From assembly GCA_964551475.1 (NCBI GenBank), contig CAZKCI010000013.1:1017-65016 (forward strand): a stretch of 64,000 nucleotides of DNA, written 5' to 3'. Numbering within the stretch: the stretch's first letter is position 1; every line of letters begins with the position of its first letter. Below are positions 16,374 to 17,817 of this stretch, piece by piece. The notes beneath the pieces are model-generated. The model was given only the letters and a program-made list of their open reading frames with translations. It did no database searches and was not told the origin of the DNA. A program made the position numbers and the translations under genes. The DNA is from an uncultured bacterium. GTDB lineage: Bacteria; Auribacterota; Erginobacteria; Erginobacterales; CAZKCI01.

Positions 16374-16447
16374 CGATTATCGGGAGAACGTGCTTGGTTT
16401 CTGCTCGTGTTCGAGCATCCAATCAACTGGGCCGACTGGTATTGGGC

Positions 16448-16477
16448 AATAAAAAACCCTGCTGGTTAAGCAGGGTT
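16448..16477 (-). terminator. rho-independent-like hairpin (AACCCTGC-loop-GCAGGGTT followed by T-run when read on minus strand)
   Basis: 8-bp perfect stem plus TTTTTTATT on the minus strand, in an AT-rich intergenic region between the recombinase and the giant gene. Confidence 0.45.
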
Positions 16478-17223
16478 ACGGGTGTGTCCCCAAGACCAAG
16501 GAACAAAAGCGACTTCAGATCACGCGCATCTCTCACAACTTCCCCCATGTGCGACCACGGTATCTGAAAACTTGCTCGATGTTACCACTCATTCAATATC
16601 GGTCAAGAGAAATCTCTCAAAATCCACAAATGCTCTATTCCATTGTAGTCCAGACTGTTGGCGAATATATCCGTGACAGCAATACATAGAAAATGCACAA
16701 AGATATCGGGGTTTTCATGGGATGACCCCAGACTGGGATATAGACCGAAGGCCGAACCAACGGAATGGCTCGTCGATCCTGACGGTTTTGTCGACTACGA
16801 GAGAATCCAAATCAAATATTTCCGTCTCACGTCGGGGATCTGAGTGAGCCAATCTCCCGCCGGCTGTTGCTTCCACGTCGGCGACGACGCTGCCTTCGAC
16901 GGGGAGTGGGACATTCACTCTCCAGGGCGACGATGTGGGTGGTCAAGGATCTCGGCCGGGGGGCTCTTCGGTCACTGCCGGGATTATCCGTTACAGGCTG
17001 ACTTCAACGAGAAGAGAGAAAACGATCCTCCGCTTTCATTTGATCCCTTGAGCCAGTGAAGGACAATGGGGGGGACTTTGGTTTACTTCAGCGGGGTTAC
17101 CGATATCCAGGAGACCCGAAAAACTCAGTCTGAATGGAAAGGAAGGGGAGCCTCCGGCATGGAGGCCTCCCTTTTATGTTGCCCATCTGTTGGTTGTATC
17201 AAACACTTCGTAAAACAGCCCTT

Positions 17224-17817
17224 TTACGAAATAGTTTCCAACGCCTTCCCCAGTTGGTCCATGTCCGGTTCAACGTAGATCGCAGTGGTCTCGATCTTGG
17301 AGTGCCCCATCAGTTTCTTGATCACCTGGATGGGAACCCCCTTCCTCCCCAGCTTGAAACCAAATGAGTGACGACAGGAATGGGGGTGAAATTTCCGTTC
17401 CAGACCGGTTTTCCCGGCATATCGGCTAACCAGGTACTGAACCGCACGGTCGGTGATTCGGTGGTTTACCCTTCCCTTTGCCGGCCTGCTGCAGAATAAC
17501 GGGGCTCTGGGGTGGATATCCTCACCATGGGTTGCCTTCCACACCAGGAAGGCCCGGATCTTCCACGTAAGCCCGTTTACAGAGCCGATCGGGAGTGTTC
17601 TCTCCTTCCTCCCCTTGCCCACGATGGTCAGGTAATCCTTGCCCGCTACATCCCCTACGTTCAATCCCGTCAGTTCCCCAAGACGGATGCCGGTGTCGAA
17701 CAAGAGGGTAAAGATCAGGATGTCCCTATCGTTCCCTCCAGACTTCACCGCTTGTCTAAACTGTTCCTCTTCCAGGCTGGTAAAATGCTTGATCTGGGTC
17801 TTTCTTATCGGATTCAT
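17224..17817 (-). CDS. small tyrosine site-specific recombinase (197 aa, catalytic domain only; FimB/FimE-like size)
   Basis: Catalytic-domain motifs (TGIRLGEL; HPHSCRHSF; LMGHSKIETTAIYV with catalytic Tyr); no N-terminal core-binding domain. Confidence 0.8.
   Translation of the reverse strand: MNPIRKTQIKHFTSLEEEQFRQAVKSGGNDRDILIFTLLFDTGIRLGELTGLNVGDVAGKDYLTIVGKGRKERTLPIGSVNGLTWKIRAFLVWKATHGEDIHPRAPLFCSRPAKGRVNHRITDRAVQYLVSRYAGKTGLERKFHPHSCRHSFGFKLGRKGVPIQVIKKLMGHSKIETTAIYVEPDMDQLGKALETIS

What the first reader, a model, noticed from the sequence alone, without database searches (positions are those of the whole stretch)
16374..17817. FimB/FimE-sized minimal tyrosine recombinase and 850-bp AT-rich leader upstream of the adhesin-RHS operon: island integrase remnant or invertible promoter switch?
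The 197-aa recombinase consists only of the catalytic domain. Its N-terminus (KHFTSLEEEQFRQAV...DRDILIFTLLFDTGIRLGEL) parallels FimE (RYLTGKEVQAMMQAV...RDYCLILLAYRHGMRISEL). These are invertases that flip promoter segments. It sits divergently adjacent to an 850-bp region of about 47% GC that precedes the giant gene. That region contains hairpins (16448-16477, 17146-17180, 17198-17217) but no long ORF. Two scenarios follow. In one it is a decayed integrase marking the island edge. In the other it is a dedicated invertase giving phase-variable expression of the adhesin-RHS operon. Phase-variable RHS toxin expression would be novel.
Basis: inference. Interest (0 to 1): 0.7.

Follow-up and report, generated by a model that had tools for sequence, protein, structure and literature searches.

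The report
Minimal integrase at a comEC-splitting island
The small recombinase is an intact, conserved enzyme sitting at the very edge of a foreign DNA island that has split the DNA-uptake gene comEC, so it is most likely the island's integrase and not a flip-switch for the neighbouring adhesin-RHS toxin genes.

Summary
The 197-aa tyrosine recombinase (17224-17817, minus strand) is real. It consists of the catalytic domain only and aligns end to end with FimB/FimE, but its sequence is Xer-like (XerA 117 bits, XerC 114, FimB 39). It is not decayed. All catalytic residues are present, dN/dS is 0.1-0.2, and about 15 homologs of 190-206 aa share about 70% identity.

It lies on the same strand as the adhesin-RHS genes, not divergent from them. 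Its start codon is about 94 nt from a junction where GC content jumps from about 50% to 65% and comEC begins at codon 306 of about 790.

Homologs in other Auribacterota/PVC metagenome contigs lie about 110-140 nt from identical breakpoints at codon 212 of comM, another competence gene, or near comM fragments. This supports an integrase of islands that target competence genes.

The invertible-switch idea finds no support. The best inverted repeat (12/14) is at chance level. Four strain variants and independent assemblies are all collinear.

The 850-bp spacer (51% GC, noncoding) resolves into three parts: a conserved RNA stem-loop at the 3' end of the recombinase gene, a terminator hairpin, and a conserved promoter plus short leader plus terminator.

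The island's other end could not be reached, so attL/attR and excision remain untested.

The parts
17224..17817 (-). Gene for a 197-aa tyrosine recombinase with a catalytic domain only. The catalytic residues are R45, K71, H146, R149, H172 and Y181.
   Evidence: Pfam PF00589 scores 103.6 bits over residues 16-186. The family alignment shows these residues invariant. dN/dS is 0.21 against L028 and about 0.10 against distant members. The best NCBIfam hits are XerA 117 bits and XerC 114 bits, with FimB 38.7 and FimE 32.9, all below their cutoffs.
17818..17911 (.). Island-end spacer between the recombinase start codon and the comEC junction. It holds an extended -10-like TGTATAAA (17831-17838, minus strand) and the motif GATCTGGAGTTC (17868-17879), which is shared with L035/L028. 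This is the presumed att-proximal region.
   Evidence: GC is 43%.
17905..17922 (.). Island/comEC junction, which contains the 8-bp palindrome GTCATGAC (17915-17922). The island-end sequence GGTCATGACATATTGATAACC resembles GGCCATGGCACTATAGGGTAAC at the comM junctions of L029 and L012.
   Evidence: Nucleotide and protein homology to intact comEC of L050/P0033 starts at 17912.
17912..19369 (+). 3' part of comEC, equivalent to residues 306-788 of a 792-aa ortholog. About 305 N-terminal codons are missing (DUF4131 and the first 70 positions of the Competence domain).
   Evidence: The Pfam Competence profile is matched from position 71 of 270. Homologs at 72-76% identity are 789-803 aa long. The synteny PLD, HypF_C, HypC, MazG, DnaA is kept in L050. 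The same junction appears in three independent assemblies.
1..17911 (.). Low-GC island (42-59% GC against 60-70% on the other side) that carries the recombinase, the adhesin-like gene, the RHS gene and small ORFs. It extends at least 1 kb beyond the window start, and its left end was not found.
17200..17231 (-). Conserved stem-loop that overlaps the recombinase stop codon (TTTCGTAAAA-GGGCTG-TTTTACGAA). It is most likely an RNA hairpin at the 3' end of the recombinase mRNA.
   Evidence: It is a perfect 9-6-9 palindrome, with 0 of 100 shuffles matching. The arms are invariant and the loop varies among strains. In 8 homologs 96.6% of cells are paired, 2 pairs show compensatory changes, and G.U wobbles occur on the recombinase-sense strand.
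17150..17166 (.). GC-rich hairpin with a T-run on the plus strand. It looks like a bidirectional terminator downstream of the recombinase.
16579..16606 (-). Sigma-70-like promoter TTGACC-16-(TG)gTAACAT that points toward the giant gene. It is almost unchanged in four strain variants (three distinct sequences): both hexamers are invariant, and a few spacer and extended -10 bases differ.
16438..16477 (-). Intrinsic-terminator hairpin (16455-16477) with its T tract, followed by the end of the conserved recombinase module at 16438. Beyond this point variant L039 carries a different beta-helix gene.
   Evidence: A Logan contig from the giant-gene side ends at 16467, which is 16438 plus about 30 nt, as expected for a k=31 graph branch at the same point (inference).
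16443..16456 (.). One arm of the only inverted repeat that brackets the promoter (TGGGCAATAAAAAA). Its partner is at 17172-17185. The match is at chance level.
   Evidence: The arm is changed in L039 without compensation.
9882..16373 (-). Gene for a 2163-aa secreted LTD/TSP3/beta-helix/TIG protein. It is island cargo and is co-directional with the recombinase.
3735..9875 (-). Gene for a 2046-aa RHS-repeat protein, 6 nt downstream of the adhesin-like gene.

Best explanation
The gene encodes a functional, unusually small tyrosine recombinase. It has a Xer-type catalytic domain and no N-terminal core-binding domain. It serves as the integrase of a genomic island of at least 19 kb with low GC content, which carries the adhesin-like and RHS genes. 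The island is inserted inside the competence gene comEC at codon 306.

Shown: the recombinase gene lies at the island's extreme edge, about 94 nt from the junction. comEC is split, and the missing 5' part is not in the window. The protein is intact and under purifying selection. Its homologs in related Auribacterota/PVC bacteria sit next to identical breakpoints in comM, or near comM fragments, and are the only recombinase between a comM fragment and the intact comM in the one such interval whose ORFs were screened (L033).

Inferred: the enzyme recombines an island site near its own 5' end with short targets in competence genes, and excision would restore comEC.

The 850-bp spacer is not an invertible element. 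It holds the recombinase's 3' RNA stem-loop and terminator, a poorly conserved noncoding stretch, and a conserved promoter, short leader and terminator. That last unit belongs to the recombinase module and reads toward whichever large surface-protein gene follows.
For: GC content jumps at about 17.9 kb. comEC is truncated: the Pfam profile starts at position 71 of 270, orthologs are 789-803 aa, the alignment starts at residue 306-308, and L050 shows intact comEC in the same synteny. The junction is identical in JGI and two Logan assemblies.

The family is conserved in length, with invariant catalytic residues, and dN/dS is 0.1-0.2.

For comM, L012 and L029 have comM(1-212) ending 110-140 nt before the recombinase ATG. 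Their island-end sequences are alike and resemble the window's. comM or its fragments lie near the recombinase in at least 10 independent loci. Within the L033 island interval, no other recombinase domain was found among the ORFs that were scanned. Cargo in relatives includes PIN and HicAB toxin-antitoxin genes.

The same recombinase plus giant gene is found with a different upstream neighbour in L035/L028.

Insertion of mobile elements into comM or comEC is a described phenomenon (PMC4774983, PMC12378983, PMC11441513, PMC12955456; seen as titles and abstracts).
Against: The island's other end, and therefore attL/attR direct repeats, was not found, because the contigs stop at a repeat. No empty site, circular junction or excision product was observed.

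In the published classification read here, tyrosine recombinases have at least a core-binding plus a catalytic domain (PMC8138268). An integrase with the catalytic domain alone therefore lacks a described precedent.

Some homologs (L004, L007) are not next to a visibly disrupted gene. The 94 nt upstream of the gene are poorly conserved even in the 89%-identical strain. Homologs show recurrent breakpoints inside the recombinase gene itself, which this model does not explain.
Confidence: 0.6

Rival explanations
1. This would be a FimB/FimE-like invertase. The recombinase would flip a segment of about 715 bp (between 16443-16456 and 17172-17185) that carries the promoter at 16579-16606, making the adhesin-RHS operon phase-variable.
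For: The protein has the same size and domain layout as FimB/E and aligns with them collinearly. The gene order recombinase, spacer with promoter, surface-protein gene on one strand matches fimE-fimS-fimA. A 12/14 inverted repeat brackets the promoter. The sharp change in divergence between the window and L039 starts at the inner edge of one arm, and homology ends 5 nt outside the other arm. One homolog (L007) lies behind a c-di-GMP-I riboswitch.
Against: An inverted repeat of that quality occurs in 12 of 20 shuffles. Part of the match consists of the A/T runs of two terminator-like hairpins. L039 has an uncompensated change in one arm. All 7 assemblies or variants are collinear. The Logan contig from the giant-gene side ends at 16467, which fits a branch at 16438 and not one at the inverted repeat. 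No inversions were seen between family loci. An intrinsic terminator lies between the promoter and the giant gene in the present orientation. Sequence affinity is to Xer, not FimB/E. Family members occur in many contexts that have no downstream co-directional surface gene.
Confidence: 0.06
2. This would be a self-contained recombinase module of about 1.47 kb (about 16438-17911) that acts as a platform or small mobile unit. It would be IS-like or integron-like. The recombinase would exchange or capture downstream cargo at the site near 16438, or at sites inside its own gene, and the island insertion in comEC would be only one outcome.
For: The module has a sharp downstream boundary. L039 carries the module followed by a different beta-helix gene, starting exactly after ...TTATTGYCCAATACC. 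An independent Logan assembly breaks where a k=31 branch at the same base would put it. Upstream neighbours differ between the window and L035. Homolog loci hold direct repeats of pieces of the recombinase gene that flank other genes: L007 has three copies of the 3' end plus a module of about 100 nt, and L004 has a 235-nt repeat that includes the first 28 codons, 6.46 kb apart and next to a tmRNA gene. Three kinds of breakpoint fall at the Tyr181 codon.
Against: No second copy of any module part is present in the 64-kb window. No convincing terminal repeats were found. The repeats in other loci are only 80-86% identical and could be decayed tandem copies. The cargo is far larger than integron cassettes, and no attC-like array was seen.
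Confidence: 0.17
3. The adjacency would be coincidental. The comEC truncation and the island would stem from another event or enzyme, and the small recombinase would be a passenger, for example a multimer resolvase or a regulator.
For: The other island end is unseen. Homologs L004 and L007 lack an obvious disrupted target. The missing core-binding domain raises doubt about autonomous site recognition.
Against: The gene is repeatedly placed 94-140 nt from breakpoints in two different competence genes, in organisms that differ by about 30% in protein sequence. No other recombinase is present between the comM fragment and intact comM in L033.
Confidence: 0.12
4. This would be a decayed integrase remnant: the C-terminal stump of a once full-length Xer-like or phage integrase.
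For: Only the catalytic domain is present. The nearest annotated relatives on plasmids and phages are about 280-290 aa. Fragmentary copies are common in other loci.
Against: There are about 15 homologs at about 70% identity with the same 190-206 aa length and a conserved N-terminal MKxxIKKTQxKHFT motif that includes the start codon. About 20 further clusters of about 190 aa appear among distant representatives. dN/dS is 0.1-0.2. All catalytic residues are intact.
Confidence: 0.04

Closest known systems
FimB/FimE tyrosine invertases of the E. coli type 1 fimbrial switch
   Same: They are about 200 aa with no separate core-binding domain. They align end to end with the window protein, including R, H-x-x-R, H and Y. 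Recombinase, spacer and surface-structure gene lie on one strand.
   Different: Identity is only 21-26%, and the NCBIfam FimB/FimE models score 38.7 and 32.9 bits against cutoffs of about 221. No significant inverted repeats and no second orientation were found. The gene sits at an island/target junction.
Xer recombinases (XerA, XerC/D; single-recombinase modules such as XerS/difSL and XerH/difH, the latter from my own knowledge)
   Same: This is the best sequence match for the catalytic domain (XerA 117 bits, XerC 114 bits; PDB 4a8e, E = 7e-20). A palindromic 9-6-9 element lies next to the gene.
   Different: About 100 residues of N-terminal core-binding domain are missing: query residue 14 aligns to XerA residue 104. 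All scores are far below the family cutoffs. The palindrome behaves like an RNA hairpin. The gene lies on a low-GC island and is multi-copy or fragmentary in relatives.
Integrases of islands that insert into protein-coding genes and carry a replacement gene end (e.g. DusA-associated integrases, PMC4482086, abstract seen)
   Same: The integrase lies at the island edge next to a breakpoint inside a conserved gene. In relatives L031 and L033 an intact comM lies beside a displaced comM fragment, as if the island supplied a new 5' end.
   Different: In the window comEC is not restored, because no 5' part adjoins the 3' part. The enzyme is about 200 aa, whereas typical integrases are 350-450 aa.
Mobile elements that disrupt competence genes (AbaR islands in comM of Acinetobacter, transposable elements in comEC of Piscirickettsia, the intragenomic-conflict model: PMC11441513, PMC12955456, PMC4774983, PMC12378983; titles and abstracts)
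   Same: The targets are comM (relatives) and comEC (window), so natural transformation is expected to be impaired.
   Different: AbaR uses Tn7-like transposition (my own knowledge), whereas here a tyrosine recombinase is involved. The host phylum (Candidatus Auribacterota) has no studied competence.
Gene-interrupting elements excised by an edge-encoded recombinase (the comK prophage of Listeria, the XisA/nifD element of Anabaena; my own knowledge)
   Same: An element splits a gene and encodes a site-specific recombinase at its border.
   Different: No evidence of regulated excision was found here.
Integron integrases
   Same: Both are tyrosine recombinases next to a promoter and variable downstream genes. 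In L007, repeated modules of about 100 nt separate genes.
   Different: The integron models match only residues 116-182 (58.7 bits against a cutoff of 265). There is no IntI-specific insertion and no attC array, and the cargo spans many kb.

Membership tests
Tyrosine recombinase superfamily (Pfam Phage_integrase) | Catalytic-domain fold signature above the Pfam gathering score | tested here: met
   103.6 bits against a cutoff of 27.1, covering residues 16-186.
Tyrosine recombinase superfamily (Pfam Phage_integrase) | Catalytic R-K-H-R-H/W-Y residues | tested here: met
   R45, K71, H146, R149, H172 and Y181 are present. Where sequence is retained they are invariant across the 11 family members, three of which are C-terminally truncated or frameshifted. 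They align with the corresponding residues of FimB/E and XerA/D.
FimB/FimE-type DNA invertases | About 200 aa with no core-binding domain | tested here: met
   197 aa. The alignment is collinear with FimE residues 5-175.
FimB/FimE-type DNA invertases | Sequence membership (NCBIfam NF007370/NF007371 above cutoff) | tested here: not met
   38.7 and 32.9 bits against cutoffs of 221 and 222. Xer models score three times higher.
FimB/FimE-type DNA invertases | Inverted repeats that flank a promoter-bearing segment | tested here: not met
   The best bracketing inverted repeat is 12/14, a level reached in 12 of 20 shuffles. One arm is mutated in L039 without compensation.
FimB/FimE-type DNA invertases | Both orientations of the segment present in a population | tested here: inconclusive
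   All assemblies and 4 strain variants show one orientation, and contig breaks are explained by an indel and by a branch at 16438. Raw reads could not be examined.
Xer recombinases (XerC/D/A/S/H) | N-terminal core-binding (SAM-like) domain plus catalytic domain | tested here: not met
   There is no PF02899/PF13495 hit. The alignment to XerA starts at its residue 104. More distant homologs of about 300 aa do have these domains.
Xer recombinases (XerC/D/A/S/H) | Equivalog-level score | tested here: not met
   117 against 220 (XerA), 114 against 335 (XerC) and 86 against 330 (XerD).
Xer recombinases (XerC/D/A/S/H) | Cognate dif-like site (two inverted arms around a 6-8 bp spacer) used for recombination | tested here: inconclusive
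   A 9-6-9 palindrome overlaps the stop codon. However, G.U-compatible changes on the sense strand point to an RNA hairpin, and no second site is present in the window.
Integron integrases | IntI-specific additional domain and family-level score; attI/attC cassette array | tested here: not met
   58.7 bits against a cutoff of 265, matching only residues 116-182. No attC-like array lies downstream.
Genomic-island / integrative-element integrases | Gene at the island border next to a disrupted or duplicated target | tested here: met
   The start codon is about 94 nt from the comEC breakpoint.
Genomic-island / integrative-element integrases | Compositionally distinct island with accessory cargo | tested here: met
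   GC is 42-59% on the island against 60-70% elsewhere. The cargo is the adhesin-like and RHS genes.
Genomic-island / integrative-element integrases | Same integrase family at equivalent junctions in other genomes | tested here: met
   L012 and L029 have comM(1-212) followed by the recombinase. comM or its fragments are found in at least 10 loci.
Genomic-island / integrative-element integrases | attL/attR direct repeats at both island ends | not testable with these tools
   The left end lies beyond the available contigs.
Genomic-island / integrative-element integrases | Excision or integration activity | not testable with these tools
   This needs reads or experiments.
Integrases with attP inside their own gene (SSV-type, Mx8 IntP; my own knowledge) | The integrase gene is split or altered at a fixed internal site on integration | tested here: inconclusive
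   Homologs show breakpoints at the Tyr181 codon and near codons 28-38. The window gene itself is intact.

The most novel reading that the evidence does not exclude
The recombinase together with its roughly 790-nt noncoding tail (about 16438-17911) would be an autonomous module run by a tyrosine recombinase that has no core-binding domain. The module would insert into competence genes (comEC here, comM in relatives) and would swap or capture large surface-protein or toxin genes at a fixed downstream junction (16437/16438), supplying them with its own promoter and leader. This would amount to a small integron-like or IS-like platform for giant adhesin and RHS genes.
Probability: 0.15. Interest if true: 0.7.

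Novelty: new variant of a known kind. Interest (0 to 1): 0.4.

Why it matters
Islands that knock out competence genes are a recognised tactic of mobile DNA. Here the tactic appears in an uncultured PVC phylum (Auribacterota), with two different competence genes hit by one recombinase family.

The enzyme is also unusually small. The published classification read here treats a core-binding domain as universal in tyrosine recombinases, and this family lacks it. If these 195-aa proteins really integrate DNA, they would be about the smallest natural integrases. They would also raise the question of how a bare catalytic domain finds its site.

For the original question, the result removes the attractive but unsupported idea of phase-variable RHS toxin expression.

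Tried and rejected
- **Rfam:** a scan of 15500-18500 at E <= 1 found nothing. Seventeen homolog loci also gave nothing.
- **Leader fold:** the putative leader RNA (16440-16575) folds no better than shuffles (z = -0.48), and three sequences give almost no covariation.
- **Inverted repeats:** the repeat search and shuffle test gave a chance-level result.
- **Inversions between loci:** an all-against-all minus-strand BLAST of family loci found only paralogous FG-GAP/SBBP repeats and no flipped segment near the recombinase.
- **Hidden coding in the spacer:** tblastx and substitution periodicity showed no coding signal.
- **Junction motif:** TTATTGCCCAAT, shared by the window junction and L037, did not recur at other junctions.
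- **Structure:** the AlphaFold model from the 11-sequence alignment was poor (pLDDT 51), so no fold search was run.
- **Island left end:** a lookup of the leftmost window ORF, then of the patatin-like fragment beyond it, returned the same 45-kb contig. That contig stops at a GGATCAAAAGGGGCCAC repeat about 1 kb left of the window. The 89-kb contig was not shown.
- **Missing comEC part:** the comEC 5' part and SIR2 were sought by tblastn/blastn in the window and in L052 and were absent.
- **Other collections:** viral contigs held no relatives. Plasmid and phage collections held only full-length recombinases at <= 38% identity.
- **Palindrome as recombination core:** reading the 3' palindrome as a dif-like core site was considered and downgraded after the wobble and compensation pattern.
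Full report
**What is at the coordinates**

An ORF at 17224..17817 on the minus strand encodes 197 aa. Its only Pfam domain is Phage_integrase, covering residues 16-186 at 103.6 bits. The next genes on the same strand are a 2163-aa LTD/TSP3/beta-helix/TIG protein (9882..16373) and, 6 nt further on, a 2046-aa RHS protein (3735..9875).

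The order is recombinase, an 850-nt spacer, then the giant gene, all on one strand. E. coli fimB, fimE and fimA are arranged the same way, so this correction does not by itself argue against a switch.

The spacer 16374-17223 is 51.2% GC, not 47%. It has no ORF above 71 aa, no tblastx similarity to any fetched locus, and no codon periodicity in its substitutions.

**The protein**

It aligns end to end with FimE (26% identity) and FimB, including the catalytic Arg, His-x-x-Arg, His and Tyr.

By sequence it belongs with the Xer clade:
- NCBIfam XerA 117 bits, XerC 114, XerD 86.
- Integron integrase 59 bits, on residues 116-182 only.
- FimB 38.7 and FimE 32.9 bits.
- None of these reach their cutoffs.

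The best solved structure is an archaeal XerA-like protein, and query residue 14 aligns to its residue 104. The whole core-binding domain is therefore absent.

This is not a one-off truncation. About 15 metagenomic proteins of 190-206 aa share about 70% identity. They have a conserved N-terminal MKxxIKKTQxKHFT motif and invariant R45, K71, H146, R149, H172 and Y181. An exhaustive profile search shows about 20 further clusters of about 190 aa among the best 150 representatives.

dN/dS is 0.21 against an 89.8%-identical strain and about 0.10 against distant members. The 'decayed remnant' reading is rejected.

**The surroundings**

GC content is 42-59% from the window start to about 17.9 kb and 60-70% afterwards. 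The plus-strand ORF that starts at 17918 is comEC, but it matches the Pfam Competence profile only from position 71 of 270. Its closest homologs (72-76% identity) are 789-803 aa and carry DUF4131 plus Competence.

The window protein aligns from residue 306-308 of a 792-aa ortholog. Nucleotide homology starts at 17912. The relative L050 has intact comEC, preceded by SIR2 and followed by the same genes as in the window: PLD, HypF_C, HypC, MazG and DnaA.

The missing 305 codons are not in the window, nor in the 1 kb beyond its start, which is still low in GC. The junction is identical in one JGI and two Logan assemblies, so it is not an assembly chimera.

The recombinase start codon (17817) is therefore about 94 nt from the edge of a foreign segment of at least 19 kb that splits comEC.

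**Relatives**

The family occurs in 'PVC group bacterium', Candidatus Erginobacter occultus (phylum Candidatus Auribacterota) and unbinned contigs. No relative was found in viral contigs. The plasmid and phage collections hold only full-length recombinases at <= 38% identity.

The family is strongly linked to comM, a second competence gene:
- In L012 and L029, whose ComM proteins are only 67% and 92% identical to that of L031, a 213-aa comM fragment (residues 1-212 of 510) ends 110-140 nt before the recombinase start, on the same strand.
- The sequence after the breakpoint (...GAAGTGGC|CATGGCACTATAGGG...) is conserved between these two loci. It resembles the window's island end (GGT|CATGACATATTGATAACC).
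- Full or partial comM copies lie within the available flanks of at least 10 independent recombinase loci.
- In L033 a comM fragment that ends at the same codon is followed by an FG-GAP gene, the recombinase, two small ORFs and then an intact comM. No other recombinase lies in that interval.
- Cargo in relatives includes PIN and HicAB toxin-antitoxin genes.
- In a strain whose recombinase is 89% identical (L035/L028), the same recombinase and giant gene have a different upstream neighbour, a TPR-like gene, instead of comEC.

Together these results support a site-specific integrase of islands that target competence genes. Disruption of comM and comEC by mobile elements is a described theme (PMC4774983, PMC12378983, PMC11441513, PMC12955456). 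An integrase with a catalytic domain alone is unusual: the classification of tyrosine recombinases that I read describes only proteins with a core-binding plus a catalytic domain, or with an added arm-binding domain (PMC8138268).

**The invertible-switch hypothesis**

A promoter-like site (TTGACC-16-TGgTAACAT) lies at 16606..16579 on the minus strand and points at the giant gene. Its two hexamers are invariant in four strain variants; a few spacer and extended -10 bases differ. The only inverted repeat that brackets it is 16443-16456 paired with 17172-17185, at 12/14. Twelve of 20 shuffles of the region reach that level. Part of the match is the A/T run next to two terminator-like hairpins. 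L039 has an uncompensated C-to-T change in one arm.

The window, L001-L003, L028, L039 and L040 (83-100% identity) are all collinear. No minus-strand match near the recombinase was found between any family loci.

Contig breaks have other explanations:
- Two Logan contigs stop at 16909 and 16924. A 25-nt indel flanked by CCACTCCCC distinguishes strains at that point.
- A Logan contig that comes from the giant gene stops at 16467. That is about 30 nt past 16438, as expected for a k=31 graph branch at the base where L039 diverges. It is not what a branch at the inverted-repeat arm would give (inference).

In addition, a strong intrinsic terminator (16477..16455 plus a T tract) lies between the promoter and the giant gene in the present orientation. 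I put this hypothesis at about 6%. Only read-level data can close it.

**What the spacer contains**

1. **17200-17231:** a stem-loop that overlaps the stop codon. It is a perfect 9-6-9 palindrome, matched by none of 100 shuffles. Among strains the arms are invariant and the loop varies. Across eight homologous copies 96.6% of positions pair, two pairs show compensatory changes, and several G.U wobbles work only on the recombinase-sense strand. I read it as an RNA hairpin at the mRNA 3' end rather than a recombination core, though the latter is not excluded.
2. **17150-17166:** a GC-rich hairpin.
3. **About 16607-17149:** the least conserved stretch, which is noncoding.
4. **16579-16606, then about 100 nt, then 16455-16477:** the promoter, a short transcribed stretch and the terminator. 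The fold is no better than shuffles. This unit may be a small RNA gene or a terminator-controlled leader.
5. **16374-16437:** sequence specific to the giant gene.

Homology to L039 ends exactly at 16438, after which L039 encodes a different beta-helix protein. The promoter, leader and terminator therefore travel with the recombinase and not with the adhesin gene.

**Unexplained features that keep a more novel reading alive**

- Homologs show breakpoints at the Tyr181 codon in three independent forms (L008/L013/L015, L036/L037 and the second L007 repeat).
- Fragments that stop near codons 28-38 recur.
- L007 has three direct copies of the gene's 3' end plus a module of about 100 nt, and these copies separate surface-protein genes.
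- L004 repeats 235 nt, comprising the upstream region plus 28 codons, 6.46 kb downstream and next to a tmRNA gene.
- The window and L039 are 99.6% identical in the second half of the recombinase gene and through 17172, then about 83% identical.

These features suggest that recombination happens at or in the recombinase module itself. They may instead be debris of tandem insertions.

**Verdict**

The best explanation is an intact, minimal, Xer-related integrase at the border of a genomic island that splits comEC (confidence about 0.6). The phase-variation idea is not supported. This is a new variant of a known kind. Interest is moderate, driven by the missing core-binding domain and the repeated targeting of competence genes.

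Noticed in passing
L007:8480-8567 (+): A c-di-GMP-I riboswitch (74.5 bits against a gathering score of 35) lies about 230 nt upstream of the recombinase homolog. A terminator-like hairpin sits just before the start codon. No riboswitch was found in the window or in 17 other family loci.
   Followed up: partly
L007:9332-9494, 11245-11408, 13921-14010: There are three direct copies of a module that consists of the last 60 nt or so of the recombinase gene (from the Tyr codon) plus about 100 nt downstream. They separate a beta-helix gene and an SBBP-repeat gene on the opposite strand, giving a cassette-like arrangement.
   Followed up: partly
L008:10505-10524, L015:5460-5477, L036:780-790, L037:5945-5955 (equivalent to window 17275-17289): Homology to the recombinase gene stops within a few bases of the catalytic Tyr codon (TATC|TAC) in three independent rearrangement types. 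These copies are left without the nucleophile.
   Followed up: partly
L004:9850-10084 and 16312-16560; tmRNA at L004:16769-17123 (-): A 235-nt direct repeat at about 80% identity covers the region upstream of the recombinase plus its first 28 codons. The copies lie 6.46 kb apart, and the second is about 200 nt from a tmRNA gene, a classical island target.
   Followed up: partly
window 16438-16606 (-): A promoter-like site that is nearly unchanged in the strain variants, about 100 nt of sequence and a strong intrinsic terminator precede the giant gene. In L039 the same unit precedes a different beta-helix gene. It could be a small RNA or a conditional-termination leader. There is no Rfam match.
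   Followed up: partly
window 16438-17479 compared with L039:1-1069: Divergence is mosaic. Identity is 99.6-100% from inside the recombinase gene to 17172, then about 83% down to 16438, then there is no homology. This points to recombination between module copies.
   Followed up: partly
window 17915-17920: The island junction creates an in-frame ATG (GTC ATG ACC, where intact comEC has CTG ATC ACC). A 483-aa N-terminally truncated ComEC could therefore in principle still be translated.
   Followed up: no
window 22788-24128 (+): dnaA lies only about 5 kb from the island junction, so the insertion sits close to the probable replication origin region.
   Followed up: no
window 16884-16909 region; L028/L039/L040: A 25-nt indel flanked by the direct repeat CCACTCCCC distinguishes strains. 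Two Logan contigs break there.
   Followed up: yes
L052:12250-12388 (about 1 kb left of the window start): Tandem copies of GGATCAAAAGGGGCCAC-like units lie next to a truncated patatin-like gene, and the JGI contig stops there. This may be a repeat or a mobile-element end that hides the island's left border.
   Followed up: no
window 20418-21719 (+): A 433-aa protein has only the C-terminal Kae1-like domains of HypF and lacks the acylphosphatase and zinc-finger parts. The same form is present in the relative L050, so it is native.
   Followed up: no
L038:192-255: A 64-nt perfect fold-back lies inside the recombinase homolog. It is probably an assembly artefact.
   Followed up: no
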